Source: an uncultured Chloroflexia bacterium (lineage in GTDB: Bacteria; Chloroflexota; Anaerolineae; JAAYZQ01). From it: a DNA stretch of 64,000 nucleotides. Every line of letters begins with the position of its first letter. The first letter of the stretch is position 1. Of this stretch, positions 47,146 through 64,000 are shown piece by piece. The translations under genes were made by a program, and so were the position numbers. A model generated the notes under the pieces. That model was not told the DNA's origin and did no database searches. It saw only the letters and a list, made by a program, of their open reading frames with translations. Location: assembly GCA_963700285.1 (NCBI GenBank), contig CAVOXA010000010.1, positions 384,001 to 448,000 of the forward strand, in the 5' to 3' direction.

Positions 47146-47156
47146 GGGCTGCCCTC

Positions 47157-48557
47157 CTACAGTGAAGCTCGCAATGAGGGATCCAGGGTACGATACAGAT
47201 AGCGTCCCCGTCCCTTCTTTGCCAGGCACTGGTCACCGTCGACGATGAGTTCCCCCCGGGAGTAGACCTGGAGTATCTTGCCCGTTACTTGGATTCCGTC
47301 ATAGGCGGCATAATCTGTGGCCATGTGCAGGCTCTCCAAGTCCATGACCCACTTGGCCTGGGGATCAAAGAGGACAATATCGGCATCGGCCCCTGGCATC
47401 AGGGTCCCCTTGTGCGGGGCCAAGCCAAAGAGCTGGGCCGGCGTGCTGGACACAACCTCTACGAACCTCGGCAGGGACAGGCGTCCTTTGGCCACACCCT
47501 CGGAATATAGCAGGCTGAGGCGAACCTCGATGCCTGGCAACCCATTGGGGACCAAATCGAAGCGGTTCAGGCCATAGAGCTTGGCTTCCCAGGGATAGGC
47601 CGCATCATCGGAGCTGACCAGCGAGATCCGGCCATCTCGCAGCGCCGTCCAGAGCCGGTCCTGGTTCGCAAGACCCCGTATGGGAGGCGAGCAGATCCAC
47701 TTCAGACCGTCTTCACGTTCCAGCATCTCGTCGGTGAAAATGAGATAGTGGGTACAGGTCTCGGCAAGGATGTCCACGCCCTGGGCCCGCCCCATGCCCA
47801 CAAGTTCAGCCCCTGCGGCGGAAGATAGGTGGACAATGAATACCCGGCAGCCGGTGTCACGAGAGATCTCGATGCACTGCCTGATGGCCTTGTCCTCAGC
47901 TTCGGGCGGTTTGGCCTTGGTGTGGTAGGGATACGCGGTCAAACCTGCGTGAACAAACTCGGAGGCTTTGCGGGTGATGGTCTCATCGTCCTCAGCATGG
48001 ACCAGCAGCATTCCGCCGGCCTCGTGGAGACGCGCAGCAACAGGCTTGAGCTCGTCCGCGCTGATATAGAGGCCATCCTCGCGATAGGTCATGTAGCACT
48101 TGATGGAGGGCGCTCCCGCAGCCACAACCAGGGGGATCTGGTCCAAGGTTTCGGGGGTTGGATCCACGATACAGGGATGAATGCCCCAGTCCACCAAGGG
48201 CAGGTTACCGGCTTCCTCCCGCTTGTAGGCCAGGGTATCGATCAGGGGCTGGCCATGCCTCTGGTTGGAAAAATCGATGACGGTGGTCACACCACCATGA
48301 GCAGCAGCCAGCGTACCGGTATAGTAGTCGTGCACGCTGACGGTATTCATGAAAGGATCGTTATAGTGCACATGGACGTCGACCGCTCCCGGCAGCACGA
48401 GCAGACCGCCGGCGTCCAGCGTGACATCGGCCTTGAAGCTGGATAGGCTGCCTACAGCGGCAATGAACTCCCCCTGGATGAGGACGTCCTGCTGGGAAAC
48501 CGCCTGTCCCAGGACAACGGTGCCGCCCCGGATCAGTGTTGACTTGAGTTCTGTCAC
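47157..48557 (-). CDS. hydA: Dihydropyrimidinase/D-hydantoinase
   Basis: Motifs VDVHVH, GGVTTVID, SIKCYMTY, VHAED, ETCTHYL, CSPPIR, PNGLPGIE. Confidence 0.88.
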   Translation of the reverse strand: MTELKSTLIRGGTVVLGQAVSQQDVLIQGEFIAAVGSLSSFKADVTLDAGGLLVLPGAVDVHVHYNDPFMNTVSVHDYYTGTLAAAHGGVTTVIDFSNQRHGQPLIDTLAYKREEAGNLPLVDWGIHPCIVDPTPETLDQIPLVVAAGAPSIKCYMTYREDGLYISADELKPVAARLHEAGGMLLVHAEDDETITRKASEFVHAGLTAYPYHTKAKPPEAEDKAIRQCIEISRDTGCRVFIVHLSSAAGAELVGMGRAQGVDILAETCTHYLIFTDEMLEREDGLKWICSPPIRGLANQDRLWTALRDGRISLVSSDDAAYPWEAKLYGLNRFDLVPNGLPGIEVRLSLLYSEGVAKGRLSLPRFVEVVSSTPAQLFGLAPHKGTLMPGADADIVLFDPQAKWVMDLESLHMATDYAAYDGIQVTGKILQVYSRGELIVDGDQCLAKKGRGRYLYRTLDPSLRASL

Positions 48558-48611
48558 AAGTGCGAACTCCTCCCCCTGCCATAGCCTGACCCCCATCGCA
48601 AAGTCAGATCG

Positions 48612-49790
48612 TTAGAGGCTATCCAGGGCCTGTCTCAGATCGCCCTTTAGATCCTCCACATCTTCAATGCCCACGGCGTAGCGGATCAAGCCCTCAGGGA
48701 TGCCTGCTTCGGCCCGTTCCTCAGCCGTCAACTCGACGTGGCTGGTGGTTGCCGGTGGACCGACAATGGTCTCTACCTGGCCCAGGTTGGCCGCCATATA
48801 GGCATACCTCAGGCGGGGCAGGAAACGGGTCACGGCCTCAAAGCCACCCTTGAGTTCAAAGCTCAACACGCCGCCATAGCCCGTCATCTGCCGCCTGGCA
48901 ATCTCGTGGCCCGGATGGCTCTCGAGGCCGGGATAATAAACCCGTTCGACTTTGGGCTCCCCTTCCAGAAAGTTGGCCAGCGCCAGGGCATTCTCATTGT
49001 GTCGTTGGACGCGCAGGCCCAACGTCTTTAGACTGCGCAGCAGCAAAAAAGCATTGAGGGCCTGCAGCGAAGGTCCGGTAAGCTCACGGTGATGATAGAT
49101 CCTGGCCACCAGGTCCTGGCGGCCGCAGACGACACCGCCCAATACATCTCCGTGCCCGTTCAAGAACTTGGTCGCGCTGTGAATGACCAGATCAGCCCCC
49201 AGGTCGATGGGCCGCTGGTTGATGGGGGTAGCAAAGGTATTGTCGACAACGGTGACTGCTCCCACTTTCCTGGCCGCTGCCGCGAGGCGAGCCAGGTCCA
49301 ACACCTTCAGCGTTGGGTTAGTGGGAGACTCTAGATAGAGCAAGTCGCAGCCCTGCGCCATGGAGGCCTCGATGGCCTCGTGATCCTCCGTATCAACCAC
49401 CTCGCAGACCACGCCAAAACGGGGAAGGATCTGCGTAAAGTGGAGGTAGGTCGCACCATAGGTATCTCGCACCGACACGGCGCGCTGTGAGGGGCTGAGC
49501 AGGGCAAAGAGTGTCGTACTGATGGCCGCCATTCCCGTGGCAAAGCTGGTGGCGCTTTCCGCACCCTCAAGGGCAGCCACTCTTTCTTCGAGGGCGCTGG
49601 TGGTGGGGTTTGAGTTGCGGCTGTAGATATCGCCGGGGGTCTGGCCCAGCGCGACGGCGCGCCAGCTTTCCACATCGTCGTAGGCAAAGGCCGCGTTGGC
49701 GACAATGGGCGGCACCACCGAGTGGGTACTCGGATCGGTACCTTGGCAGAGGTGCACCGATCTGGTTGAGGGTCCTTCACGTCGATCCAT
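48612..49790 (-). CDS. Cystathionine gamma-synthase family PLP enzyme
   Basis: Motifs YSRNSNPT, FATGMAA, ESPTNP, DNTFATP, HSATKFLNGHGD. Confidence 0.92.
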   Translation of the reverse strand: MDRREGPSTRSVHLCQGTDPSTHSVVPPIVANAAFAYDDVESWRAVALGQTPGDIYSRNSNPTTSALEERVAALEGAESATSFATGMAAISTTLFALLSPSQRAVSVRDTYGATYLHFTQILPRFGVVCEVVDTEDHEAIEASMAQGCDLLYLESPTNPTLKVLDLARLAAAARKVGAVTVVDNTFATPINQRPIDLGADLVIHSATKFLNGHGDVLGGVVCGRQDLVARIYHHRELTGPSLQALNAFLLLRSLKTLGLRVQRHNENALALANFLEGEPKVERVYYPGLESHPGHEIARRQMTGYGGVLSFELKGGFEAVTRFLPRLRYAYMAANLGQVETIVGPPATTSHVELTAEERAEAGIPEGLIRYAVGIEDVEDLKGDLRQALDSL

Positions 49791-49812
49791 ACCATCATCT
49801 CCTTCAATGTGT

Positions 49813-51060
49813 CTAGTGGCCCAGCAGCAAGGCTGCATGCAAGAGGACATTGGCCCCATTCACACAATCGTGCCACTCGGTGAATTCCTGGGAAGAGTGG
49901 CTGAACCCATCCACCGACGGCACAAATATCATACCTGTGGGACAGACGGATGCCAAAACCTGGGCATCGTGGCCCGCACCGGAAGGGAGAAACCTGTGGG
50001 GCAGATCCAGCGCTGAGCAAGCCCTGACAAAAGCTTCCTGGACCCGGGGTTCCATGGGTGCCGGGGCGGTCCTATCCAGGCCCTCGACCTCCAGATCCAA
50101 CCCAAAACGCTCCGCAGCGAAGAAGGCCTGATGCCCTAACTCGGCCTCGATCTCGTCCAGCCTGGTCTCGTCCTCCGTCCGGAATTCCAGGGAGACGGCG
50201 ACCTGGTGGGGAACGACGTTAAAAACACCCGGAGCAAAGACCATATTGCCCACTGTAGCGACGCAGTCCGGGAAGCGCTTCATCATGGTTTCCCGGACTG
50301 ACAGGGCAAAGGCACTCGCCCCCTGGCTCGCGTCGAGGCGGCGGCCCATGGGGGTTGTCCCAGCATGATCGGCCCGTCCGCAGAACCGCACCTGGAACGA
50401 CCGGATGCCCACAATGCCGGTCACAATACCAATCTCCACACCGGCCTCGGCCAATCGCCCCCCCTGCTCGATGTGTAGTTCCAGATAACCAGCCAGCGTG
50501 TTCGGGTCCCTGCCAGCACTGCAAAGGGAAGCGTTGCTCAAACCGGCCTGCTGCAACACCTGCTGGAAGCGCTCGTGACCGCCGCGCGGCTGCTGAAGCT
50601 GTTCCGGGGTCAGCCTGCCGGTTAGTCCCAAACTGCCCACAAAGTTGGCGAGATGCCCTTCCTCGTCGGTGAAATCGATGGCCTCCAGATGGGTGTTCAG
50701 GGAGAGGTTCTGCTCCTTTACGACCTGCAGCGATTCCAGGGCGGCCACTACCCCAAGCGCTCCGTCAAAGCGCCCACCGTCGGGTACCGAGTCCAGGTGT
50801 GATCCCAGCAGCAGCGTCTTTGCGCCGGGCGGGCCACAGCGGAGGAGGGCCGAATGGTTTCCAGCCCCATCCACCCGCGTATCCAAACCCGCTTCCTGGG
50901 CCGTAGCCAGAAACCAACGGCGGGCTTGCCTATGCGCCTCGCCGAATGCCGGCCGGTGGACTCCGCCCTCAGGCGTGGCGCCGACGGCTGCCAACGCCTC
51001 AAAATTGGCACGAAAGCGCTCGGCATTGACCCGAAGGGCAGATAATGTATCCCGCATCAT
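49813..51060 (-). CDS. Zn-dependent N-carbamoyl-amino-acid amidohydrolase (beta-ureidopropionase/allantoate amidohydrolase family)
   Basis: Motifs GSHLDSVPDGGRFDG, DEEG, ELHIEQG, HAGTTPM, SGAGHDA. Confidence 0.92.
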   Translation of the reverse strand: MMRDTLSALRVNAERFRANFEALAAVGATPEGGVHRPAFGEAHRQARRWFLATAQEAGLDTRVDGAGNHSALLRCGPPGAKTLLLGSHLDSVPDGGRFDGALGVVAALESLQVVKEQNLSLNTHLEAIDFTDEEGHLANFVGSLGLTGRLTPEQLQQPRGGHERFQQVLQQAGLSNASLCSAGRDPNTLAGYLELHIEQGGRLAEAGVEIGIVTGIVGIRSFQVRFCGRADHAGTTPMGRRLDASQGASAFALSVRETMMKRFPDCVATVGNMVFAPGVFNVVPHQVAVSLEFRTEDETRLDEIEAELGHQAFFAAERFGLDLEVEGLDRTAPAPMEPRVQEAFVRACSALDLPHRFLPSGAGHDAQVLASVCPTGMIFVPSVDGFSHSSQEFTEWHDCVNGANVLLHAALLLGH

Positions 51061-51074
51061 CCTTCCCCTTGACG

Positions 51075-51524
51075 TCAATCGAGGGAACGTCTCAGCGCAA
51101 CCAGTCTCATTGTATACTCGGGGGTGAGGCCGTGCTCCTGGGCGCCCACAATCATGTCTTCGACATAGCCCTTCGACGCAGTGTAGGGCCCTGCTGGTGC
51201 AGAGACCCTGTACAGGTCGGCCCTGTGCCATTTCCCATCTTCTCCCAGCACGAGAAAGGTATCGCGCCGGTACAGTCCTTCGGGAACGCTCTCCAGGATA
51301 TCCAGATCGACGATCTCTTGTTCAGGAACCTCATAGATGACGCCCTCCACCAACTCGCCTGGCGCCTCGATGATGCTGCTGATCCCGCCCTGTCTGTTCT
51401 CAGAGTAATGGCGGAATTCGACCTGAAAGTTCGGTAGTTCCGCTTTCATGACAAAGACTGCACCAGGACAGTATTTTTGAACGTACCGGGTAGAGAGGTT
51501 TGACCCATAGGCATAGTAGTACAT
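51075..51524 (-). CDS. Gamma-glutamylcyclotransferase family protein
   Basis: Motifs YYYAYGSNL, VEGVIYEV, LDILE, G.Y.R. Confidence 0.85.
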   Translation of the reverse strand: MYYYAYGSNLSTRYVQKYCPGAVFVMKAELPNFQVEFRHYSENRQGGISSIIEAPGELVEGVIYEVPEQEIVDLDILESVPEGLYRRDTFLVLGEDGKWHRADLYRVSAPAGPYTASKGYVEDMIVGAQEHGLTPEYTMRLVALRRSLD

Positions 51525-52290: not shown

Positions 52291-53910
52291 TTACCCACGG
52301 GGTGGGTCAGCAAGCGGCCCAGGGACTTCGATGAGCCCCGGTTTTCCCGAGGCAAAGGCGGCATCCAGCGCACCGGGCAGTTCGTCCATGGTCTCGATGT
52401 GCAGGCCGGTGGCGCCGTAGGCCTGGGCCAGGCGGGGAAAATCGGGGTTGACCAGATCGGCGGCAAAGATCCGCCCGCCATAGTTCCGCTCCTGCTGGCG
52501 GCGGATGGCGCCAAAGGTATGGTCGTTGACGACAACGGTGACCACGTTCAGTTCATGCTGAACCGCGCAGGCCAGTTCTTGCCCGGTGAACAAAAAGCCG
52601 CCGTCACCGCACAGGCAGATCACGCGCCGGTCGGGGTACGCCGCCTGTGCGCCCAAGGCGGCCGGCAGCCCAAAGCCTAGCGTACCAAAGCCCAGGGGGA
52701 AGAGAAAGGTACGCGGCTCGTACACAGGTTGATGCCATAGCTGCCAACCCCCAACGCAGGCAGCATCGCCAGTGCTAATGCCATCGCGCCCCAGAGCCGC
52801 GCTCAACGCCTGAACGAGGGCCAGGCCATCGGTTCCGGCTGCTGCATCACGCATCTGGTGGCGCACGGCCAGGGCCTCTGTCGCCCAAGGAGCCACAACG
52901 CCGGGCCCAGGCCCATCCAGGGCCTCTGCAAGCTGCCGCAGTACGACCCTGGCATCGCCGGCGAGGCCTACGTCTACCAGATAGTTGCGGCCGATCTGAG
53001 CAGGGTCTATGTCCACCTGTACGAGCCCGATGGGAGGCGGCAGTTGCCAGCCGCCGGTGGTGATCTCATCCAGGTCGGTGCCGATGGCCAGCACGGCATC
53101 GGCCTGCTGCCACAGATTCATGATTGGTTCGAGGCCAAAGACCGCAAAGCCTAGAGCCAGCGGGTGGTCGTCGGGCAGTGCGCCTTTGCCATTGCAGGTG
53201 TTGGCCACCGGCGCACCCAATGCCTCGGCCAAGTCCGCCAGCGCAGCGGTCGCGCCGCTCCAGTGTACCCCACCCCCGGCAAAGATCAGGGGCCGCGTCG
53301 CCTCTCGCAGGATGCGCGCGGCCTGAGCCACGAGTTGTGTGTCAGCGGCAGGCGGGGCCAGATGGGGCGCCGGGGCGATCTCGAGGTCAGCCTCGGCAGC
53401 CAGAACGTCTTCGGGGATCTCGATGTAGGCTGGGCGGGGGCGGCCAGATGTCATAGCCAACCAAGCCTCGTTCACCGCCGCGGGAATGTCGGCCACTCGG
53501 GTAACACGGCGGCTCCACTTGGTGATAGCCCGCGCCATGCCTAGCTGGTCCCGCATCTCGTGGAATACCCCCCGGTCCTGGCCGATGAACCCGGAGGTGA
53601 TCTGGCTGGCGATGACCAGAACGGGCACCGAGTCGCGGTAAGCATCGCCCACTGAGCCCATGATGTTGCCCACCGCCGGACCGGTGGTGACGATGGCGAC
53701 GCCGGGTTGGCCGCTGGCGCGGGCATAGCCATTGGCCATCAGGCCGGCCCCGCACTCGTGGCGGGCCAGGATGTGGCGGATGGATGTCTGTTCGTGATAC
53801 AGTGCATCGTAGATGGGCAGGTTGTGCGTGCCTGGAATACCAAAGACCGTGGTCACGCCGTTGGCCTTCAGAGTTTGCACCAGCACTTGCCCGCCTGTCA
53901 TGCGTGTCAT
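52291..53910 (-). CDS. Thiamine-diphosphate-dependent enzyme (2-oxoacid decarboxylase/acetolactate synthase-like)
   Basis: Motifs FGIPGTHNL, RHECGAG, FHEMRDQ, GFGTLGFG, CGDGGF...VND. Confidence 0.9.
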   Translation of the reverse strand: MTRMTGGQVLVQTLKANGVTTVFGIPGTHNLPIYDALYHEQTSIRHILARHECGAGLMANGYARASGQPGVAIVTTGPAVGNIMGSVGDAYRDSVPVLVIASQITSGFIGQDRGVFHEMRDQLGMARAITKWSRRVTRVADIPAAVNEAWLAMTSGRPRPAYIEIPEDVLAAEADLEIAPAPHLAPPAADTQLVAQAARILREATRPLIFAGGGVHWSGATAALADLAEALGAPVANTCNGKGALPDDHPLALGFAVFGLEPIMNLWQQADAVLAIGTDLDEITTGGWQLPPPIGLVQVDIDPAQIGRNYLVDVGLAGDARVVLRQLAEALDGPGPGVVAPWATEALAVRHQMRDAAAGTDGLALVQALSAALGRDGISTGDAACVGGWQLWHQPVYEPRTFLFPLGFGTLGFGLPAALGAQAAYPDRRVICLCGDGGFLFTGQELACAVQHELNVVTVVVNDHTFGAIRRQQERNYGGRIFAADLVNPDFPRLAQAYGATGLHIETMDELPGALDAAFASGKPGLIEVPGPLADPPRG

Positions 53911-53958: not shown

Positions 53959-56190
53959 TTACCAACTCTCCTGCATAGTGTGCAGGGCCAACAGCATGTA
54001 CTCCTGGCGCTCCGCCCCAAACTCATCCAGTCGCTGCGCGCAGTCGCGGAGGATCTCGGATGGTATCTCCCCAACGCTATCCATGGGCAACGAGGCGATG
54101 ATGATACGCCGGAGCAACACCGCCCCCGATTCCAGTTCCCTCCTGGCCAGCGCTTCGGCACATTCCTCCATGGCAGCCACGAGCGATGGATCGCTGACCC
54201 TGCGACCGGCCTTTCTCCTCACCGAGGCAACAGCCTGCGAGCTAGCGGTACCTGGATCGATCCGCATCCCCCGCCACAGGTGGATGAAGTGATGCTCATT
54301 GCCGATCAGGCGCGCCAGGGCCAGTGCCAACTCCAAACGCCTATCCTCGCTCGGGCTTTTGTAGAGCATGGCCAGCAGATCGGGAGCGGCCTCTTGCACC
54401 CCCAGGGCACCCAGCGCTGCACCGAAGGCGACGCTCAGATCCTCGTTCGTTTCGGATTGCAGCCGGTCCAGCAGGAGGGGAACCGCTTCGGTATCGCCCA
54501 GGCTGCCCAGCGAGCGAGCACAGTGGGCCTGGACCGAGCGGTATTCGGAACCGAGGCCCTCGCGCAGCACGGGGAGCGCATCCCGGTCCCCCATGCGACC
54601 CAGTGCCCAGGCAGTAATGACGCTCAGGGCTGGTCCCCCTCTATGCAGAACTTTCACCAGGGCACTCGTCAGGCGAGGATCCGAACCGCCGCGCGCGATA
54701 GAGACGATGGCCTCGAAACGCACGTAAAAACGGGGATCATCGAGGGCTTCCAGAAGTTCATCCACCGCCAGAGGGCTCCTGGACTGACCCAGACGCTCAG
54801 TCACCGACACGGTGGCACGCTCGCTTCTGACCAATTGGTACCGGATCAGCGACTCCACTGCACGAAGCGGGTTGCCCCGGAGAAAGAACCCGGCGAACCT
54901 TGCCACGCCGATCTCGCCTTCGGCGCGCACACCTCTGAGAAGCAGCGCGTTCAGCAGGGGAAGGAGGATCGCGGCCAGGAACAAGAAGGAATAGGAATCC
55001 AGGGGAAAAATCAAGAAATAACCCGAGACGCCGACAAACCGGTCGAGCACTCGACCGCCGAGCAATTGCCCAAAGCCTTCGACGATGCTGATCCAGGCAT
55101 AGTACAATGCCAGATAAGAATTATTCTTGTCGGGCGGAACGACGCCGACGAAGAGCAGCCGGCCCAGGCCAATCTGCCAGCCCAGGGTAGCGATCCCCTG
55201 GAAAAAGGCGATGACCAGGGCGACGTAGAGGCTGAGACCAGATTGTCTCGGGAGCAGCCACCAGAGCAGCGCCTGGAGGGCCAGGAGATAGGCCCCCGAG
55301 GCCATGATCGGCTTGCTGCCGTAGCGGTCCGCGGCCCAGCCCCACACGTAGCTTGAGGCCATCCCACCGATCATGGTTCCGGCCTGCAGCCAGACCACGG
55401 CGCCGGAAGGCAGACCCACGTCATCCCGAAGGAACAGAGGGAGAAACGAGACCAGAGGTCCGATGGCCAGCAGCGTCAAACCCACACCCACCGCGAGCAG
55501 GACAAAGTTCTTGTCGCGAGCTGCGATTGTCAGATCCAGGTGAGAGGCTCGCGCAGACCGGCTGCTCTCTACAGGTGCGCCACCAGGAATGAAGGTGGCA
55601 GCGACTAGGGCGATCAGACCAAAGGACACGCCCACAGCAAAGAGGACGTTGAAATCCCGCAAGGTGGGTGCTGAACCCAATACAATTCCGCCCAGCGTGA
55701 CCGCCAGAAAGGACGCCAAGCTCCAGAAGATCTGGTTGATGGCCGAATACTTGCCCCGCACACTGTTGGGTACATATTCTTGGATCCAAGGAAAGACCGC
55801 GGTTATGGCCACAGCGCGGGAGACGGCAAAGGCTGCGACGATGCCAACGATGTACCAAATCACTACCTGTGACCCAAAGGTGGCCAGAACCCAGGGGGTG
55901 AATAGCAAAAAGACGGCGATAAGCTTTCTGCCCCCGAAAAAGATCAGGTAGGTACGCTTGTAGCCATGGCGGGCTACCGCTGGGGCGATGAACAGAGCGA
56001 TGAGGCCGGCAAAGGGCAGGAGGGAGAGGAGGCTGCCGATCTGCGTCTTGGACAGGCCCAATTCGCTAAGAAAGAGTACAAACACCGAGCCAAAGAAGGT
56101 GAGATAGTAAAAGACGGCGTTTGTCGCTTCGGAAAAGATGCTCCACGGAAGCCGGCGCAACTTTTCGGCGTTCGTTAGTTCGCTACTCAT
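53959..56190 (-). CDS. MFS transporter fused to C-terminal HEAT repeats (copy A)
   Basis: About 430 aa of hydrophobic helices with the MFS motif WGWAADRYGSK, then HEAT units LLEALDDPRFYVRFEAIVSIA, AWALGRMG, HCARSLGSLG. Confidence 0.85.
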   Translation of the reverse strand: MSSELTNAEKLRRLPWSIFSEATNAVFYYLTFFGSVFVLFLSELGLSKTQIGSLLSLLPFAGLIALFIAPAVARHGYKRTYLIFFGGRKLIAVFLLFTPWVLATFGSQVVIWYIVGIVAAFAVSRAVAITAVFPWIQEYVPNSVRGKYSAINQIFWSLASFLAVTLGGIVLGSAPTLRDFNVLFAVGVSFGLIALVAATFIPGGAPVESSRSARASHLDLTIAARDKNFVLLAVGVGLTLLAIGPLVSFLPLFLRDDVGLPSGAVVWLQAGTMIGGMASSYVWGWAADRYGSKPIMASGAYLLALQALLWWLLPRQSGLSLYVALVIAFFQGIATLGWQIGLGRLLFVGVVPPDKNNSYLALYYAWISIVEGFGQLLGGRVLDRFVGVSGYFLIFPLDSYSFLFLAAILLPLLNALLLRGVRAEGEIGVARFAGFFLRGNPLRAVESLIRYQLVRSERATVSVTERLGQSRSPLAVDELLEALDDPRFYVRFEAIVSIARGGSDPRLTSALVKVLHRGGPALSVITAWALGRMGDRDALPVLREGLGSEYRSVQAHCARSLGSLGDTEAVPLLLDRLQSETNEDLSVAFGAALGALGVQEAAPDLLAMLYKSPSEDRRLELALALARLIGNEHHFIHLWRGMRIDPGTASSQAVASVRRKAGRRVSDPSLVAAMEECAEALARRELESGAVLLRRIIIASLPMDSVGEIPSEILRDCAQRLDEFGAERQEYMLLALHTMQESW

Positions 56191-56377
56191 CTACGCGATT
56201 GGTACTCTTTTTCAGCATGGTGTTTTGGTCTGCTATGCCGGACCTTGCCCAAGCGCTCAAGCTGGCTGAATACAATACGATACACTGTGAAACGGTGTAC
56301 GTAAGATGCGGTCCCGCGCACTTGACACCGTACCTCAGGTCACAACCCAACACGGAAGAAGGTCTTGGGCTGCAGCC

Positions 56378-57520
56378 TCAGCGGGTGCCATACTTGCGCA
56401 CCAGCTCTAGCACCAGTTGGTAGCGCTCGTAACTAACCTCTGGTGGAACCGAGTGATCGGAGTGATAGATGTAGCCCCCGCCGCCGGCGACAAAGGGCGT
56501 GATCTTGGTCCGGATCTCCTCCTCGATCTCCTCGTCGGTGCCGTTGGCCATGTTAATGACATCGATGTTGCCCCAGAAGGTCAGCCGGTCGCCGTAGGTT
56601 TTGCGCAACTCCCGTACATCCAGGCCAGACTTGGCCTCAAGGGGCTGGATCACCTGCAAGCCACAGTCGATGAGATCCCCAAAGACTGCCTCTGCATTGC
56701 CGCAGCAATGCATCCAAAAGTCGATACCGTTGGCGCTGAGAAACTGGCCCAGTTGGCGGATGAGTGGCTTAAAGATCTGGCGCCAGGTGCGCGGTGACAT
56801 CAGCATGCCCTTGGTGTAGGCTAGGTCTTCGATCATGAAAACACCATCCGGCTTGATGCCCTCATCCAGGCAACGCTGCAGGACAGCGATCAACAGATCC
56901 ATGTAGGTCGAGGCCATTTCGATGACAAAGTCGGGATCGGTGACCAGGTCCATCAGCAATTCGGTAAAGCCCCGATGGCGCCAGGTGGATTCCCAGGGAC
57001 CGTAGGCGTTGCCCAGCACGTAGCGTCCCCGCTGCTGGATCCCGTCAAAAATGCCCTTGGCCTCTGCCCAGGTGGGATAGGGATCCATGTGCATGAAATA
57101 ACTGGCCTGGTCCACACGGGCCGTACCATCCAAGTCCAAGACAAAACGCTCCTTGATCTGATCCCAGGCATCCTTGTCCTTGGTCACATGGTCCATGAAA
57201 TCCATGGTACGGGACTTGCCCTTGGACTTTTTCACCGTATAGCCAAAGCGGTCCTGGTAGATGACATACTCGCCATCATCGCTCAACAGCTTTTGCTCCA
57301 GCCGGGGCGACGCATCCAGCGAAATATAGTCAAAATCAAAACCAAAGTACTCGGGAATGCCGCCCACCGCCTCGCTGAAAACGTCGTTGCTGACCGCTTC
57401 CCGCGAAAGTCCCTCGTCGTACCAGCCGGTGAGAGTGTCCTCCCAAAATGCATCGGTCATCGGTACCCGGTCTGGGTGCTCACGGTTCAGGGTACGAATG
57501 ACCCGTTCTCTGCTATCCAT
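56378..57520 (-). CDS. Uroporphyrinogen decarboxylase/MtaA-like family protein
   Basis: MDSRERV...PDRVP, EDLAY..GMLMSP, MHCCG, FWGNID, YIYHSDHSVP. Confidence 0.85.
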   Translation of the reverse strand: MDSRERVIRTLNREHPDRVPMTDAFWEDTLTGWYDEGLSREAVSNDVFSEAVGGIPEYFGFDFDYISLDASPRLEQKLLSDDGEYVIYQDRFGYTVKKSKGKSRTMDFMDHVTKDKDAWDQIKERFVLDLDGTARVDQASYFMHMDPYPTWAEAKGIFDGIQQRGRYVLGNAYGPWESTWRHRGFTELLMDLVTDPDFVIEMASTYMDLLIAVLQRCLDEGIKPDGVFMIEDLAYTKGMLMSPRTWRQIFKPLIRQLGQFLSANGIDFWMHCCGNAEAVFGDLIDCGLQVIQPLEAKSGLDVRELRKTYGDRLTFWGNIDVINMANGTDEEIEEEIRTKITPFVAGGGGYIYHSDHSVPPEVSYERYQLVLELVRKYGTR

Positions 57521-57616
57521 GCCTTTCCTCTCTGGCCAGCCCGCAGAAGAAGGCAACGCGCAAACAAGGCCGTGCCTTGTCTGCGTGTTGCCTGATCCAC
57601 CTCCGGACTTGCGTTT

Positions 57617-58546
57617 CTAACCTTTGTACTCAAACATCTCCGGGTAGCGTTTCCGGCTGCCCTCAGTAAGCTGGGCCATCTCCTCATCTGTCAGAGGGAT
57701 GTAGGGCGCTCGGGTGACCCGGCTGCCCTTGAGCCAACCGACCATCTCCTGGAAAGCCTTGTCCAGCGTCGGGTCCAGATGGCCCGCCGCGATCAGGGGG
57801 TAGACATCCTTGACCAGCCAGCGGCTGATCCGCCACTGGATCTCTATGGCCTCTTCCCATTCACGCCGTTCGCACATGGCGTACCAATCAAGGATGAACT
57901 CGGGGTTCATCAGGGCATGGGAGCAGTACATACCTTTGGCCCCAAACATCATGCCCATGACCAGGTCGCCCTCGCCGACAAAGTGATTGAGTTCAGGCCC
58001 GTTGACCTGCAGCTCCATCCAAGCGGCGAATTCGGAACTGCAGAACTTGGTGCCGATGAGGTTGGGAACCTCGGCGCAGATTCGTTGATAGTCCTTGCCA
58101 TTCAAGAAACGCTTGGCACGGCGGATGTTATAGTGCACAATACCCACGTCAGGGCAGGCACTACTCAGGTCCACAAAGTACTTGAGCACTTCATCATCGT
58201 TGAGTTCTATCCAGAAGGGCACGGCCACCTGCACGCCGTCGATGCCCCTGTCGGCCGCATAGCGCGCCATGCGGATCGAGTCCCGCGTATTCATCCAACT
58301 GCAACCCACCTGGGTCAGCACTTTGCCCGCCGTGTCTTCCACAAAGATGTCCACCATACGCTCAAATTCGTCAAAATCGAGCGTATGGAACTCGCCGGTG
58401 GAGCCGGTGGTATAAAGGCCGTGCACCCCGCCCTCGATGAGCTTGGCCACATTCTCACGGAAGATCGCCTCGTCCAGATTGCCGTCCTCGTCCCACGGCA
58501 TGGTGACGGACACCCAGACACCTTTCAGATTCTCTTTTGTCAGCAT
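57617..58546 (-). CDS. Dihydrodipicolinate synthase/N-acetylneuraminate lyase family aldolase
   Basis: Motifs GSTGEF, HYN, IGTK (Schiff-base Lys). Confidence 0.88.
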   Translation of the reverse strand: MLTKENLKGVWVSVTMPWDEDGNLDEAIFRENVAKLIEGGVHGLYTTGSTGEFHTLDFDEFERMVDIFVEDTAGKVLTQVGCSWMNTRDSIRMARYAADRGIDGVQVAVPFWIELNDDEVLKYFVDLSSACPDVGIVHYNIRRAKRFLNGKDYQRICAEVPNLIGTKFCSSEFAAWMELQVNGPELNHFVGEGDLVMGMMFGAKGMYCSHALMNPEFILDWYAMCERREWEEAIEIQWRISRWLVKDVYPLIAAGHLDPTLDKAFQEMVGWLKGSRVTRAPYIPLTDEEMAQLTEGSRKRYPEMFEYKG

Positions 58547-58636
58547 GTTCTGCTCTCCTTGTTTGTGCAGCCGAGATTCCCTCCGCGCCTCAGGCGCGCT
58601 TCACTCCAGCTCGCTACGGCTCAGGATTTCCCTTTT

Positions 58637-60871
58637 CTACTTTTGCCAACCCTCATCCATAGCATGGAGGGCCAGCAACAGATACTCCCTTCTTCCATCC
58701 CCAAACTCATCCAGACGTAGAGCACACTCGGCCAGGATCAAAGCCACGGTTTCGCCGGCCGTATCTACAGGCAGCATGGGGATCATGCGGCTGATAGAGG
58801 CCGCACCCTGCTCTAGTTCATCCCGGGCCAGCACCTCAGCGCAGTCCTCCATGGTATCCATGAGAGCCTGGTCATTGACCACACGGCCGACCATTCTCTT
58901 TGCCGTGCTTATGGCCTGCGAAGCCACAGTCCCCGGCTCGGTCCGCATGCCCCGCCAGAGGTGGATGAAATGATGCTCGTTGCCGATCAGGCGTGCCAGC
59001 GCCAGTGCCAGCTCAAGGCGCCCATCTTCATTCTGATTCACGTAAAGCAGTTCAAGCAAATCAGGGGTGGCCTGCCACGCATTCAGCGCTCCCAGTGCCG
59101 AGCCAAAGGCAACGCTCAGGTCCTCGTTTTCCTCCGACCGCATGCGCTCCAGCAGGAGGGGAACAGATTCGACGTCGCCCATGCTGCCCAGTGACCGGGC
59201 ACAGTGGGCCCGAATCGACCGGTACTCGGCGTCGAGGCCCTCGCGCAGGTCAGGGAGCGCATCCTGAGCGCCAATGCGACCCAGTGCCCAAGCGGCAATC
59301 ACACTCAGAGCAGGTTCCTTGCTATTCAGAACCTCGACCAATGCCTCGGTCAGGCGCGGATCCGACTCTCGGCGTGCGATGGAGACGATGGCTTCGAAAC
59401 GCACATAGAACCGGGGGTCGTCCAAGGCCTCCAGTAGCTCATCCACCGTGAGTGGGCTCCTGGACTGGCCCAGGCGCTCGGTCACCGACACTGTGGCCCG
59501 CTCATCCCTGGCCCAGTGGTACCGGATCAACGATTCCGCGGCACGAAACGGGTTCCCTCGGATAAAGAACCCGGCGAATTTTGCCACGCCGACAGTGCTT
59601 TCGGTATGCACGCCTCTGAGCAGCAGGGTGCTGAGCATCGGCAGGACAGCGGCAATAATAAAGAGAACCGAATAGGCGTCAACAGGGAGGAACAGGAACT
59701 GACCAGAGAGGTCCGCAAAACGATCCAGCAGCCGGCCACCATACAACTGCCCCAGGCCTCCGACGACGCCGATGAAAGCATAGTAGAGGGCCATGTAGCC
59801 AGCCTTTTTTTCAGGCGGAACGACGCCAACGTAGAGCATTCGGCCAGAACCGATCTGCCATCCCAAACTGGCCACTCCCTGGAAGGCGGCAATGGCCAAG
59901 GCAATGTACAGGCTCACGACTGATTGGCGCGGCATCAACCACCACAGGAGCGGCAGGACTGCCAGCAGGTAAGCGCCCGAGGCCATGATCGGCTTACTAC
60001 CATATCGGTCGGCTGCCCAGCCCCACACATAGCTGGCAAGGAGGCCGCCCGCCAGGGTTCCTGCCTGCAGCCAGACCACAACGCCAGTGGACAGCCCCAC
60101 TTGGTCACGTAGGAAAAGGGGCAGAAATGACGCGACAGGACCAGTGGCCAGCATTGTGAGCCCCACACCCACCGCGTGCCGCACAAAGTTGCTGTCGCGG
60201 ACTGCTGCGGCCATGTCCTGGTGCGGGGTCCCTTCTGTCTGACCTTTCTTGACCGGCGCACCGCCCGGAATAAAGCTTGCAGCGCCCAGGGAGACTAGGC
60301 CAAAAAACAGACCCACGGCAAACAGGATGTTGAAATCGCCCAGGTTGGGATCTGAACCCAACACATAGCCGCCCAGTGTGACGGCCATGAAAGAGGTCAA
60401 GCTCCAGAATACCAGGTCAATCGCCGAGTATTTGCCCCGCACACTGCTGGGCACGTATTCCTGGACCCAGGGATAGAGGGCAGTGATAGAGACGGCGCGG
60501 CAGACGGCAAAGACAGCGACGACGCCAACGACGTAGCGGGTCACGGCCTGGGACCCAAAATGAGCCAAAACCAGGGGGGTCAGAAGCAGAAAGACTGTAA
60601 TGATCTTTCTGCCCGCAAAGAAGGTCAGGTAAGTTCGCTTGTAGCCGTACCGGGCGACGGCTGGGGCAATGAATAGGGCGATGAGGCCAGCGAAGGGCAA
60701 TAGAGAGAGAAGGGTACCGATTTCTGTTTTGGTGAGCCCCAGCTCGTTGAGAAAGAGCACAAACACGGAGCCAAAGAAAGTAAGATAGACGTATACGGCG
60801 TTGGTTGCATTGGCGAGTATGCTCCAAGGCAAGCGACGCAGTTTCTCGGCGTTCGTCGGTTCACTGGTCAT
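58637..60871 (-). CDS. MFS transporter fused to C-terminal HEAT repeats (copy B)
   Basis: 744 aa, colinear with 53959..56190 over its full length. Confidence 0.85.
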   Translation of the reverse strand: MTSEPTNAEKLRRLPWSILANATNAVYVYLTFFGSVFVLFLNELGLTKTEIGTLLSLLPFAGLIALFIAPAVARYGYKRTYLTFFAGRKIITVFLLLTPLVLAHFGSQAVTRYVVGVVAVFAVCRAVSITALYPWVQEYVPSSVRGKYSAIDLVFWSLTSFMAVTLGGYVLGSDPNLGDFNILFAVGLFFGLVSLGAASFIPGGAPVKKGQTEGTPHQDMAAAVRDSNFVRHAVGVGLTMLATGPVASFLPLFLRDQVGLSTGVVVWLQAGTLAGGLLASYVWGWAADRYGSKPIMASGAYLLAVLPLLWWLMPRQSVVSLYIALAIAAFQGVASLGWQIGSGRMLYVGVVPPEKKAGYMALYYAFIGVVGGLGQLYGGRLLDRFADLSGQFLFLPVDAYSVLFIIAAVLPMLSTLLLRGVHTESTVGVAKFAGFFIRGNPFRAAESLIRYHWARDERATVSVTERLGQSRSPLTVDELLEALDDPRFYVRFEAIVSIARRESDPRLTEALVEVLNSKEPALSVIAAWALGRIGAQDALPDLREGLDAEYRSIRAHCARSLGSMGDVESVPLLLERMRSEENEDLSVAFGSALGALNAWQATPDLLELLYVNQNEDGRLELALALARLIGNEHHFIHLWRGMRTEPGTVASQAISTAKRMVGRVVNDQALMDTMEDCAEVLARDELEQGAASISRMIPMLPVDTAGETVALILAECALRLDEFGDGRREYLLLALHAMDEGWQK

Positions 60872-60943
60872 TGTACAGCCGCTATCCTATCATGATCTCA
60901 AAGCCGCAGAAAAGATGTCCAATATCCATGGCCCTGCGCACCC

Positions 60944-62071
60944 TCATCCAGCCAGTGGATAAGCGCCCTCCTCTGCCCAGAATCGGGCGATCCACTGGAT
61001 CCGGTGAAAGAGCGCATCGGTGGGTACATTGTCCCCAAAGCCCAGGATGAACCTATTGCCAGGGGCAATGGTCCGGAACAGCTCCTCCATGTAGCGCTGG
61101 AATTCGCCATCGGTATAGGTGGACGTCAGAATGGTCGAGGGAATGCCGCCCCACGCGGCTACGCGGTCGCCCCAAAGCTGGCGCGTGGCTGCCAAGTCAA
61201 TGGTCGTCATTGGTTTGGGGGTGAGCGCCTCCACCACCTGTATTCCACTGGCCATCAGCTTTTCCAACAGCGCCCGCATCTCGCCGTCGCCGTGGACAAC
61301 CATGATCTTGCCGCCCCCGTCCAGGGTCTCTCGCGCCTCCCGATAGAAGGGAGCAAAGAAAGTGTCAAACACCGGCGGGGGCGTCATCTGCTCGTCATAG
61401 TTGCCCCCCACCTCGATGGCCTGGGCCGGGCAGGCAGCAGCCAAGGCCAGGATCTGGCGTTGCTGTTCCGTGAGTACCCCGACTAGCGCATCCAGCTGGG
61501 TGGGGTGGTCGTGCAACTGGTAGTAGAACGTCTCGTAGCCCATGAAAAAGATCATGAGTTGATGGGCCGCCAAGTGTCCGGTATAGGGAACGGCCAGACC
61601 ATCAATACCAATGTCATCTACGAACCGGGCGTACTCTTCATAGTTCTCAACGACCTCGGTGTGCTCGACAAAGAAACGCAGGGCGTCATAGTCCTGGGGA
61701 CCCTTGAAAGGGTACTCGATCCGGGCCGCCGTACCTGCTGCGTCCCGCAACTCGACAGACATCCGGTCGCGGCAGGTCAACGTCCCGTAGGGAGTGTGGT
61801 ATTGGATCGTCGACAGGTCCCCCTCTACGTTCTTTGTGACCTCGACGTCGTGGTGGACCAGGCGGTAGCACGAAGCGCTCCAGGCCCCAAAACCAAATAT
61901 GCCAATGCCCAGGTCGCGTTGGATGTCCCACAGGCTGGCGCGTTCGTATGGCGGCGGCAGCGTCCCTCCGTTGCGATGGAACTCGTACCACAGCTCCATG
62001 CGGGCGATAAAGGGAATGTGGTCGACAGGTTGGCCGCGCATGGCGGCCAAGGCCAGGTCCCGGTGATTCAT
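60944..62071 (-). CDS. Uroporphyrinogen decarboxylase-like family protein
   Basis: Motifs VDHIP, TPYGTL, VHGDG, WGGIP, FILGFGDNVP. Confidence 0.8.
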   Translation of the reverse strand: MNHRDLALAAMRGQPVDHIPFIARMELWYEFHRNGGTLPPPYERASLWDIQRDLGIGIFGFGAWSASCYRLVHHDVEVTKNVEGDLSTIQYHTPYGTLTCRDRMSVELRDAAGTAARIEYPFKGPQDYDALRFFVEHTEVVENYEEYARFVDDIGIDGLAVPYTGHLAAHQLMIFFMGYETFYYQLHDHPTQLDALVGVLTEQQRQILALAAACPAQAIEVGGNYDEQMTPPPVFDTFFAPFYREARETLDGGGKIMVVHGDGEMRALLEKLMASGIQVVEALTPKPMTTIDLAATRQLWGDRVAAWGGIPSTILTSTYTDGEFQRYMEELFRTIAPGNRFILGFGDNVPTDALFHRIQWIARFWAEEGAYPLAG

Positions 62072-63174
62072 GATACTTGCTCCTCCGCAACGGATTTGCT
62101 AGGTTTCGGAAAGCGTCGGAAGTCTGGTCGAGAGCGATGTTCCTCAGCAACCTCCACCAGAACCTTGAGATTGCACAGGGGCGTGGTCAGGGGCACCGCG
62201 CATTCAGGCGACAGGATCTGGACGCCGCCATGCACAGCACGGCGGCAAGCTGCGGCGACGTCCTCGGGCGTGCCCCGCAGCAGGGTTTCTGGATTGTTGA
62301 TATTGCCGATGAGCGTCATCCTGCCCGCCGCAGCCGCTACCGCGTCGTAAATCTCGACTTGCGACTCGAAATGATAGCAGTCAATGCCTGTTTGGGCAAA
62401 ATCACGCAGGCGATCGGTCGTGTTGCCGCAGCAGTGCAGGACCGTGGGGCAGCCAATCTCTTGGACAATCTCCTGGTGCAGGGGCAATAGCATGTCACGG
62501 TACATGATGGGAGAGACCATGCCACCGGTGGCATGGTCAGCCAGGCAGACAATGTCCGCCCCGGCCCGCACCTGGGCCCTGGCAAAGGCGATGGGTACCG
62601 GCAGCAGCGCCTCAAGGGAGCGCTGTGCTCTGGCCGGATCCTTGATAGTACTGACAAGAAACTCCTCCACACCCATCATATGGTAGGACAGGGTCCAGGG
62701 TCCCATTACCTTGCCTACGATGACGACCCTGTCGCCCAGCGCCTGGCGCAGCAGACACAGGGCATCGAGTACAGCTTGGATAGGAGGCTCCTCCATCCAC
62801 CCTGGCGGGATGGAAAATTGGTGTCCTTCCCGCGCATCGTCGGCCATGGAAAAAGGGTGCGAAGTGACGCCAGGCATCATCTCGGGATTACCCCACTCCA
62901 TCTCACAGCCCAGGGCGGCTGCCTCCTGGGTAACACTAAACACAGGCATCACCGTATCATAGCCCAAGACTTCATAGCTTGTGGCCGCCAGCGCGGCCAT
63001 GGTTTCCGCATCCAGGTGCGCCACAGGGAACCATGCGTCTGCGGTTGCCATCAGATCCTGGGTGATCACCGACACAACGTTGCCCACCGGCGTACGGTCC
63101 GCCACTCCACCCAGGAGCGCCGTCAGGAAGCGGCGTTTGGGTCCCATCGGCCTCGGAAGCGGATCAAAGCTCAT
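62068..63174 (-). CDS. MtaA/CmuA-family (methylcobamide:thiol methyltransferase-like) protein
   Basis: Motifs EAAALGC, GPWTL, VSP, VLHCCG, GNINNP, LSPECAVP. Zn ligands H-x-C...C are retained. Confidence 0.85.
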   Translation of the reverse strand: MSFDPLPRPMGPKRRFLTALLGGVADRTPVGNVVSVITQDLMATADAWFPVAHLDAETMAALAATSYEVLGYDTVMPVFSVTQEAAALGCEMEWGNPEMMPGVTSHPFSMADDAREGHQFSIPPGWMEEPPIQAVLDALCLLRQALGDRVVIVGKVMGPWTLSYHMMGVEEFLVSTIKDPARAQRSLEALLPVPIAFARAQVRAGADIVCLADHATGGMVSPIMYRDMLLPLHQEIVQEIGCPTVLHCCGNTTDRLRDFAQTGIDCYHFESQVEIYDAVAAAAGRMTLIGNINNPETLLRGTPEDVAAACRRAVHGGVQILSPECAVPLTTPLCNLKVLVEVAEEHRSRPDFRRFPKPSKSVAEEQVS

Positions 63175-63176
63175 AT

Positions 63177-64000
63177 TTATCTCCTTGATAGCTGGCCGTA
63201 CTTCCAGGCAGCATCCCGGAAGGAAAGCAGGTTCTCGTAGGGTGTCAGCGGCGACGTGTTGCAGCTAGAGCCAAAAAGAAAGCGCCGCTTGTCGCCCATA
63301 GAGGCGAATAAGTCGCGTACGTAGGCATCGATCTGCCCCGCGGCGCGCGGGCCGGCAAGCTCCTGCTGGGGCGCCGCCATGCCGCCAGTCACGATCAAGC
63401 GCTCGCTCAGTTCCCGGGCTTGGTGCAGAGGCCAATCCCCCAGAGGGGGCGGCGCCTGGCCCTCAACGCAATCTAACTCCGCTTCCAGGAAGAGCGGTGC
63501 CAATGCCTTGAGCTGGCCGCAGGCGTGCAAAAAGAGGTACTTGCCCCGAGCGTGGACCACTTTAGCCGCCTTTTGCAGGGTAGGAAGACAGAAAGACCGG
63601 AACAGGCGCGGGCTGTAGAAAAGGCTGTCCACGTTGTCTGATACTTCCAACACGTAGGCGTCGTCCAAGTCCACAACCTCTTCCAGGAATTGCAGGAGGT
63701 TGCGTTCGTGGATCTGCGCCAGTTCCTGCATCTCCCGGGGGTGGTCGAGCATGAAATAGGTTGCCTGCTCCTGGCCTGCCAGCCAGTGGAACTGCTTCAG
63801 CGGCGTGGGCAGCAGGATGACGGGGATGATGCCATCATCGCCCACCCGCTCCACCCGCCGGTGCCATAGATCCGCATCCAGGTGGACCTCGGTATCCTCC
63901 AGCCAGTAGCGGATGGCTGGGTACTCCGATTCAAAGTCTTTCCACCAGTGTTCGGATTCGAAGGGCGCCCCGCTCTCCGGCCGGTACTCCCAAGTCTGAG
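63177..64000 (-). CDS. Uroporphyrinogen decarboxylase-like family protein, 5' end outside window
   Basis: Motifs VGDDGI, PTPL, YSPRLF, FLHACG, LFGSSCNTSP. Frame appears to continue to the window edge. Confidence 0.75.
   Translation of the reverse strand, partial: QTWEYRPESGAPFESEHWWKDFESEYPAIRYWLEDTEVHLDADLWHRRVERVGDDGIIPVILLPTPLKQFHWLAGQEQATYFMLDHPREMQELAQIHERNLLQFLEEVVDLDDAYVLEVSDNVDSLFYSPRLFRSFCLPTLQKAAKVVHARGKYLFLHACGQLKALAPLFLEAELDCVEGQAPPPLGDWPLHQARELSERLIVTGGMAAPQQELAGPRAAGQIDAYVRDLFASMGDKRRFLFGSSCNTSPLTPYENLLSFRDAAWKYGQLSRR

What the first reader, a model, noticed from the sequence alone, without database searches (positions are those of the whole stretch)
53959..64000. Duplicated MFS-HEAT fusion transporters interleaved with four URO-D/MtaA-like proteins and an aldolase: candidate undescribed uptake-demethylation system
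Seen: two colinear 743/744-aa proteins, each an MFS domain plus about 300 aa of HEAT repeats and each directly downstream of a URO-D-family gene. They are co-oriented with a DapA-family gene, an MtaA-like gene and a ThDP enzyme. Established: MFS transporters normally lack large alpha-solenoid tails, and the URO-D fold includes corrinoid-dependent methyltransferases (MtaA/MtbA/CmuA). Inference: the module imports methylated or otherwise modified sugars or amino acids, and the HEAT tail scaffolds or regulates the cytoplasmic enzymes. I know of no characterised example, but cannot exclude one.
Basis: partly seen in the sequence, partly recalled or inferred. Interest (0 to 1): 0.7.

Follow-up and report, generated by a model that had tools for sequence, protein, structure and literature searches.

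The report
Transporter-HEAT pair in methyltransferase-like sugar cluster
Two membrane-transporter genes carrying a helical-repeat tail sit among methyltransferase-like and amino-sugar enzyme genes in an uncultured bacterium, where they likely import a methylated sugar-type compound, but relatives of this transporter mostly occur without such enzymes, so the tail is probably not a dedicated enzyme scaffold.

Summary
The genes are there as described. MFS-HEAT is a large uncharacterised family: 1302 hits, 36 of 401 class genomes. The family as a whole is not tied to URO-D genes. URO-D lay in 3 of 79 loci and in 1 of 33 loci of a second sample; expected by chance 0.93 of 49 (2 seen) and 1.03 of 33. 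Only the narrow subclade holding these two copies travels with one URO-D orthologue. Beyond the window the run continues into NanE, a sugar kinase, a GlcNAc 2-epimerase-like and a BNR gene. No corrinoid protein lies within 250 kb; corrinoid proteins, activases and CODH are elsewhere in the genome. Best reading: a lineage-specific catabolic cluster recruited and duplicated an existing transporter. Demethylation is plausible but inferred. HEAT-as-URO-D-scaffold is unsupported for the family and untested here (complex tool unavailable). Transporter-HEAT fusion has a published precedent (NTT-HEAT), of which this is not a member.

The parts
58637..60871 (-). MFS-HEAT copy 1, 744 aa: MFS domain about 1-420, PBS-HEAT/alphaRep-like solenoid tail about 425-744
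   Evidence: Pfam; AF2 pLDDT 88; Foldseek; tail model pLDDT 93, VIA Z 20.9 to alphaRep; dN/dS 0.09-0.14
53959..56190 (-). MFS-HEAT copy 2, 743 aa, 71% identical to copy 1; differs in acidic residues of TM1, TM5 and TM11
   Evidence: dN/dS 0.08 over the first 596 codons
60944..62071 (-). URO-D-superfamily protein, 375 aa, H-x-D...D triad; the orthologue that travels with the MFS-HEAT subclade
   Evidence: a 73% orthologue sits beside an MttB gene without MFS-HEAT
62068..63174 (-). MtaA/CmuA-family methyltransferase-like protein, 368 aa, H-x-C...C
   Evidence: TIGR01463 256 over cut-off 235, NF004889 274 over 244; best PDB match 4ay7, E 1.6e-50
63177..64000 (-). 3' part of a 390-aa URO-D-superfamily gene that starts beyond the window; H-x-C...C
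57617..58546 (-). DapA/NanA-superfamily class I aldolase-like protein, 309 aa; keeps T47, Y139, K167; below every named equivalog cut-off
56378..57556 (-). URO-D-superfamily protein, 392 aa, H-x-C...H triad
52291..53910 (-). ThDP-dependent enzyme (acetolactate synthase/decarboxylase superfamily), 539 aa, last gene of the run, 48 bp after copy 2
   Evidence: same place in the same-genus genome

Best explanation
Two copies of a widespread, uncharacterised MFS-HEAT transporter lie in a lineage-specific cluster of UroD-superfamily and amino-sugar enzyme genes, where they likely import a methylated or otherwise modified amino-sugar or sugar-acid, while the HEAT tail likely binds a family-wide partner rather than these enzymes. 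Proposed working: (1) the MFS domains carry solute in (fold shown by model, activity inferred). (2) The UroD-fold proteins, which keep metal triads, move methyl groups to or from corrinoid proteins encoded elsewhere in the genome and on into the Wood-Ljungdahl branch (motifs and trans genes shown, reaction inferred). (3) Kinase, epimerases, class I aldolase and ThDP enzyme break down the backbone (families shown, substrates inferred). (4) The tail presents a conserved Glu/Trp/Arg set on its inner helices and regulates or positions the transporter (conservation shown; face assignment from recalled alphaRep numbering; role inferred). The transporter gene alone was duplicated after it joined the cluster, and both copies are under purifying selection.
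For: Family breadth: 1302 hits; 36 of 401 class genomes; named members in Chloroflexota and Planctomycetes, Atlas clusters also commonest in Armatimonadota and Spirochaetota (run on homologue P0041). No family-wide URO-D link: 3 of 79 loci; 2 of 49 against 0.93 expected; 1 of 33 against 1.03. Neighbours are mixed: mutS, purM, FGGY kinases, ThDP, GH106, GH36. Unfused 430-445 aa sister MFS proteins exist. Subclade-typical W156 and Q339 in TM5 and TM10 (9 rows shown). Upstream NanE (over cut-off), NagK-like, AGE-like, cupin isomerase and BNR genes. Metal triads. Trans machinery: B12-binding ORFs, RACo, Pterin_bind, a Prismane-family CODH-like gene. dN/dS 0.08-0.14.
Against: No substrate is shown. 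27 of 31 URO-D clusters in this genome lack a nearby corrinoid gene, so these proteins may not be corrinoid methyltransferases at all; only one of the four passes a methyltransferase cut-off. The subclade link at 62-64% identity rests on contig-length matches, not on DNA read. Neighbourhoods outside Chloroflexota were not sampled, and two deeper members (L053, L073) do sit with URO-D and glycoside hydrolase genes. The putative binding face is no more conserved on average than the rest of the repeat region (0.56 against 0.56; outer surface 0.42). Co-transcription of the run is inferred from short gaps only.
Confidence: 0.6

Rival explanations
1. Dedicated uptake-demethylation metabolon: the HEAT tail docks the neighbouring UroD-fold enzymes at the transporter exit, at least in this subclade.
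For: Subclade stays beside one URO-D orthologue, and identities fall together (94/91, 91/86, 87/84, 77/64, 75/62%). Tail is closest to alphaRep protein binders.
Against: Tail and its conserved residues are kept across 86 full-length representatives although 76 of 79 and 32 of 33 loci have no URO-D. The two upstream URO-Ds are 19% identical while residues 421-640 of the two copies are 77% identical. A 73% orthologue of the URO-D occurs in a genome with no MFS-HEAT hit.
Confidence: 0.13
2. The cluster is sugar or sugar-acid catabolism in which most UroD-fold proteins do metal-dependent chemistry other than corrinoid methyl transfer, and MFS-HEAT is simply its importer.
For: No corrinoid, activase or folate methyltransferase gene found in the cluster; three of four proteins far below methyltransferase cut-offs, with divergent triads; the superfamily includes decarboxylase and epoxide-transfer chemistry (PMC10418091, introduction).
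Against: One protein passes the MtaA/CmuA cut-off with the full H-x-C...C motif; an MttB gene lies about 19 kb upstream and next to the 73% orthologue; trans machinery is present.
Confidence: 0.17
3. The transporters are passengers: a mobile solo gene with a housekeeping or export role landed in a URO-D-dense region and has no functional tie to it.
For: Family neighbours are random-looking and tandem pairs arise elsewhere, e.g. beside mutS; 10.6% of the genome is within 10 kb of a URO-D ORF; a weak promoter-like site lies just upstream of copy 1.
Against: Position conserved through the subclade; gaps of 48-187 bp on one strand; subclade-typical residue changes in cavity helices.
Confidence: 0.1

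Closest known systems
NTT-HEAT and NTT-HEAT-cNBD fusions (Major et al. 2017, PMC5381601; HEAT passages read)
   Same: Membrane transporter domain with a C-terminal PF13646/PBS-lyase-type HEAT tail; widespread in bacteria; none functionally characterised according to that paper.
   Different: No TLC (PF03219) match at E up to 0.1 and no cNMP-binding domain fused or downstream; transporter part is an MFS_1-matching lineage with unfused sisters.
Type 1 mlp gene clusters (Kountz and Balskus, PMC10418091; parts 1-2 of 6 and passages read)
   Same: Several UroD-superfamily genes in one run, one of them MtaA-like; no folate methyltransferase in the cluster.
   Different: [quoted passage not shown] Context is amino-sugar rather than sulfur or selenium.
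Corrinoid O-demethylase / MT-I systems of the UroD superfamily (OdmB, VdmB, MtvB, MtoB, CdmB; PMC13222342, passages read)
   Same: Same superfamily; host has corrinoid proteins, activases and a CODH-like gene.
   Different: Described substrates are methoxylated aromatics and haloalkanes; partners here would have to act in trans; orthology to these enzymes was not tested.
alphaRep / PBS-lyase HEAT-like repeats (NblB, CpcE/F, DOHH)
   Same: Tail fold: Z 20.9, rmsd 3.3 over 219 residues to alphaRep; Z 15.2 to CpcE/F.
   Different: Far below NblB, CpcE and CpcF cut-offs; no His-Glu pairs of the DOHH type (motif recalled).
nan (sialic acid) catabolic clusters: NanA, NanE, NanK, AGE, sialidase (recalled)
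   Same: NanE over cut-off; kinase, AGE-like, BNR and DapA/NanA-superfamily genes in the same run.
   Different: Aldolase, kinase and AGE are below their equivalog cut-offs; six UroD-fold genes are interleaved on the same strand; transporter is not shown to be NanT-like.

Membership tests
NTT-HEAT fusion | N-terminal NTT/TLC domain (PF03219) | tested here: not met
   No PF03219 for either copy at E up to 0.01, nor for copy 1 and six homologues at E up to 0.1
NTT-HEAT fusion | C-terminal HEAT-repeat domain (PF13646) | tested here: met
   HEAT_2 85.9 and 78.6 bits, cut-off 27.7
NTT-HEAT fusion | cNMP-binding domain fused or just downstream (some members) | tested here: not met
   Downstream genes are DapA-family and ThDP
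Major facilitator superfamily | Two-domain helical MFS fold | tested here: met
   MFS_1 over cut-off; Foldseek TMt about 0.7-0.8 over about 420 columns to solved MFS proteins; a crude hydropathy scan found 11 and 10 segments
Major facilitator superfamily | Motif A-like loop (recalled) | tested here: met
   G284-x3-D288-R289-x-G291 at 97-100% in 86 fused and 95-100% in 21 unfused representatives
Major facilitator superfamily | Solute transport activity and substrate | not testable with these tools
   Needs an uptake assay
Type 1 mlp gene cluster | At least two Mlps (over 25% identity to a characterised SCMT) | tested here: inconclusive
   One of four passes MtaA/CmuA cut-offs; identity to MtaA/MtbA not computed for the others; 56378-57556 matches 4ay7 only at E 5e-5
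Type 1 mlp gene cluster | Corrinoid protein gene in the run | tested here: not met
   Nearest small B12-binding ORF 256 kb away
Type 1 mlp gene cluster | Ram/RACE activase gene in the run | tested here: not met
   PF14574 only on contigs C1 and C22
MtaA/CmuA methyltransferase (62068-63174) | TIGR01463 score over cut-off | tested here: met
   256.2 against 235.4; below the MtaA equivalog cut-off of 400
MtaA/CmuA methyltransferase (62068-63174) | H-x-C...C zinc ligands (role recalled) | tested here: met
   H247, C249, C325 align with H-I-C and G-C of 4ay7
HemE uroporphyrinogen decarboxylase | TIGR01464 over cut-off | tested here: not met
   Best 55 against 303 among the four
DapA / NanA equivalogs | Schiff-base Lys with Tyr and Thr/Ser (recalled) | tested here: met
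   T47, Y139, K167 at 93% or more in 107 homologues
DapA / NanA equivalogs | Equivalog score over cut-off | tested here: not met
   dapA 81.5 of 206, nanA 69.4 of 382, NF003164 86.4 of 281
   Chloroflexota-dominated samples only

The most novel reading that the evidence does not exclude
The cluster is an undescribed anaerobic pathway that strips methyl groups from O- or N-methylated amino sugars or nonulosonic acids with a panel of UroD-fold methyltransferases, borrowing corrinoid proteins in trans, and is fed by a specialised MFS-HEAT subclade with a remodelled cavity whose solenoid tail docks the first enzyme: a transporter-anchored demethylation metabolon in sediment Anaerolineae.
Probability: 0.12. 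Interest if true: 0.75.

Novelty: new variant of a known kind. Interest (0 to 1): 0.36.

Why it matters
Two open questions meet here. First, a multi-phylum MFS family with a PBS-HEAT tail and unfused sisters has no description that my searches found; it is a second transporter-HEAT fusion beside NTT-HEAT and gives a natural with-and-without-tail comparison. Second, this genome has about 55 UroD-fold genes, mostly without a corrinoid partner nearby and often among sugar genes; their substrates are unknown, and this cluster, with nan-like enzymes alongside, points to methylated amino sugars as a testable class. The specific claim of a conserved transporter-demethylase scaffold does not hold for the family.

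Tried and rejected
Family-wide URO-D link: rejected in two samples. Caveats: the URO-D profile was built from this genome's paralogues; background counts include true HemE genes and were capped at 33 or 44 scored candidates per genome; background was computed for 50 of the 79 loci; many loci are shorter than 20 kb; kin are not independent. Second sample: 29 of the 36 genomes plus four; left out were G000, G001, G006 and G597 (already covered), G781 and G791 (contigs about 2 kb) and G784 (unpublished; it counts only in the 36 of 401 tally); 4 of the 33 duplicate first-sample loci and 6 are unfused homologues. Metagenome scan: URO-D beside 1 of 7 family members, the 86% one. Duplicated URO-D/transporter cassette: rejected. 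NTT-HEAT, type 1 MGC, HemE, DOHH-like enzyme tail: see membership tests. ThDP as a family partner: neighbours in other loci are only 24-29% identical to this one. Complex prediction of tail with the 60944-62071 protein: tool not available, no result. No RNA holder listed, which says nothing on expression. Promoter scan gave 9 sites against 3.6 in shuffles, all weak; not used as support. Literature searches that found no description of this fusion or of UroD-fold sugar demethylases: (listings only; most subscription papers are not in the library; no supplements were read, and those of PMC5381601 could list further fusions). Phylum-level search scored only 2 candidates per genome (4 of 401), so absence is not shown.
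Full report
Observation. The eight genes are present on the minus strand at the stated coordinates. Both long proteins pass Pfam MFS_1, HEAT_2 and HEAT_PBS; four neighbours pass URO-D, one DHDPS, one the three TPP domains. The copies are 71% identical. The AF2 model of copy 1 (90-row alignment, pLDDT 88) matches solved MFS proteins in its N-terminal part and alphaRep proteins in its tail. The tail alone (pLDDT 93) is closest to alphaRep, Z 20.9, then CpcE/F at Z 15.2 among many solenoids. Contigs of run X4 at about 93% identity bridge the URO-D/copy 2, DapA/copy 1 and copy 1/URO-D junctions. The host is a Chloroflexota, probably Anaerolineae: the 91% orthologue is titled Chloroflexia bacterium, and same-family genomes carry loci titled Anaerolineae.

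The cluster is larger than the window. Upstream on the same strand lie two more URO-D genes, a TIGR04076 protein, an AGE-like epimerase, a cupin isomerase, a BadF/NagK-like kinase, NanE (over cut-off) and a BNR protein. A divergent run holds another DapA-family gene, a URO-D, an MttB gene and a sugar ABC transporter. Gaps on the minus strand are mostly under 100 bp, and the 575-bp gap holds the cupin gene. The order is kept in the same-genus genome, where copy 2 has a one-base insertion near codon 597, which may be a sequencing error; an intact 97.6% orthologue exists (P0007). The aldolase was found in only these 2 of 23 genomes of the order.

No corrinoid partner in the cluster. The nearest small B12-binding ORF is 256 kb away. 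RACo activases, Pterin_bind genes and a Prismane-family CODH-like gene lie on other contigs, three of them together on C22. This is the rule in this genome: 59 URO-D-like ORFs fall in 31 clusters and only 4 have a small B12-binding ORF within 10 kb. All four window proteins keep a candidate metal triad (H-C-H, H-D-D, H-C-C, H-C-C) but are only 14-25% identical to each other. Only 62068-63174 passes a methyltransferase cut-off and aligns with MtaA 4ay7 at the ligand positions. None is HemE.

The transporter family. A word-index search gave 1302 proteins among 7990 scored. The representative search listed 150, of which 86 full-length fusions and 21 unfused 430-445 aa sisters were analysed. Named members include Chloroflexota, Planctomycetes and, for unfused forms, Armatimonadota and Gemmatimonadota; Atlas clusters for homologue P0041 are commonest in Chloroflexota, Armatimonadota and Spirochaetota. 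It was found in 36 of 401 class genomes and 8 of 41 relatives.

Neighbourhood test. Of 79 genome loci (best 80 of 330 relatives), 3 contain a URO-D gene: the same-genus L003, L053 (third and fourth gene downstream, after GH106 and a GDSL esterase) and L073 (convergent, among GH36 and GH116). For 50 of the 79 I counted URO-D genes per genome: without L003, 2 of 49 seen against 0.93 expected, Poisson p 0.24. In a second sample 1 of 33 loci had a URO-D, on the other strand 6 kb away, against 1.03 expected; 17 of those genomes have 10 or more URO-D genes. Other neighbours are mixed and no family recurs widely.

A result against my first reading. Both copies fall in an 11-row subclade with 100/100 support (35 rows chosen from the larger FastTree). 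Its members with readable DNA keep the 60944-62071 orthologue upstream (L003, L093). Three of 8 further subclade proteins share longest-contig length and source with such an orthologue (chance mean 0.04), against 1 of 109 outside it (chance 0.31); two of the three are only 62-64% identical to copy 1. This is indirect, but it suggests a real, narrow link. The subclade rows shown also carry W156 and Q339 where the family consensus has S and G, and the copies differ in acidic residues of TM1, TM5 and TM11; that these helices line the cavity is general MFS knowledge. The URO-D orthologue does not need the transporter: at 73% identity it sits before an MttB gene in a genome with no MFS-HEAT hit.

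The duplication. Only the transporter coding region is duplicated. Both copies show dN/dS 0.08-0.14. Separate tandem pairs exist in 7 other loci, several beside mutS, and form their own clades, so duplication is a habit of the family.

The tail. Its first repeats are the best conserved part of the protein (0.63 against 0.47-0.50 for the MFS halves). E493, W528, R559 and E620 are kept in 92-98% of 86 representatives and fall at positions that in alphaRep form the binding face (numbering recalled). Averaged over 30 positions that face is no more conserved than the rest (0.56 each) but more than the outer surface (0.42). There are no His-Glu pairs. A conserved partner is therefore plausible, and it should be something present wherever the family is, which URO-D neighbours are not.

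Known systems. NTT-HEAT fusions are described as widespread and uncharacterised (PMC5381601, passages); this family lacks TLC and cNBD. Type 1 mlp clusters need corrinoid and Ram genes in the run (PMC10418091, parts 1-2 of 6); not met. UroD-superfamily MT-I enzymes act on methoxylated aromatics and haloalkanes, some without zinc (PMC13222342, passages). Seven searches found no account of this fusion or of UroD-fold sugar demethylases, within a library that lacks most subscription papers. The scan's own index had nothing on this sequence and one NTT-HEAT note.

Verdict. Real and undescribed as far as searched, but less of a unit than proposed: a widespread transporter-HEAT family, one subclade of which joined a lineage-specific UroD/amino-sugar cluster and duplicated there. 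Import of a modified amino sugar with demethylation through trans-encoded corrinoid proteins is my best inference (0.6 for the overall reading; the substrate class is less sure). New variant of a known kind, interest 0.36.

Noticed in passing
G000 genome-wide; e.g. C10:495148-524700 and C14:96539-120330: About 55 UroD-fold genes in 31 clusters, 27 without a small B12-binding ORF within 10 kb; two other clusters hold 7-8 ORFs among what look like sugar kinases, isomerases and ABC transporters. Metal triads vary widely.
   Followed up: partly
L004, L005, L007, L010, L022, L037, L062: Tandem MFS-HEAT pairs from two old paralogue clades, often after mutS and before a second MFS and purM; recurrent pairing could mean the two work together.
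   Followed up: partly
P0229-P0269; G419, G525, G544, G581, G588, G619: Unfused 430-445 aa sisters of the MFS domain keep the same invariant residues, a natural control for the tail.
   Followed up: partly
L001:5265-9895 (beyond the window): BNR protein, URO-D, NanE, NagK-like kinase and a 159-aa cupin isomerase head the same minus-strand run.
   Followed up: yes
window 57617-58546: The aldolase-like protein defines its own subfamily (113 hits) with conserved W18, W112, H138 and N140; its PDB hits include the hydratase-aldolases PhdJ and NahE as well as NanA and DapA.
   Followed up: partly
P0513: A protein joining residues 1-310 of the 60944-62071 orthologue (78%) to residues 25-130 of the ThDP orthologue (80%): a deletion or an assembly chimera in a relative's cluster.
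   Followed up: no
L003:14665-16897: One-base insertion splits copy 2 in the same-genus genome near codon 597.
   Followed up: partly
L053:435-8482 and L073:1313-14750: Two deeper family members lie with glycoside hydrolase genes (GH106; GH36, GH116) and 2-4 URO-D genes unrelated to those of the window.
   Followed up: partly
G000:C22:26222-36275: CODH-like, RACo and Pterin_bind genes together; the last two appear split in two frames, possibly read errors.
   Followed up: no
window 44868-51524: Separate minus-strand run: gamma-glutamyl cyclotransferase-like, M20 hydrolase, Cys/Met PLP enzyme, amidohydrolase, PLP decarboxylase, arginase-family.
   Followed up: no
P0139, P0141, P0179, P0200: Family members of 695-887 aa with apparently extra or repeated HEAT units in the tail.
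   Followed up: no
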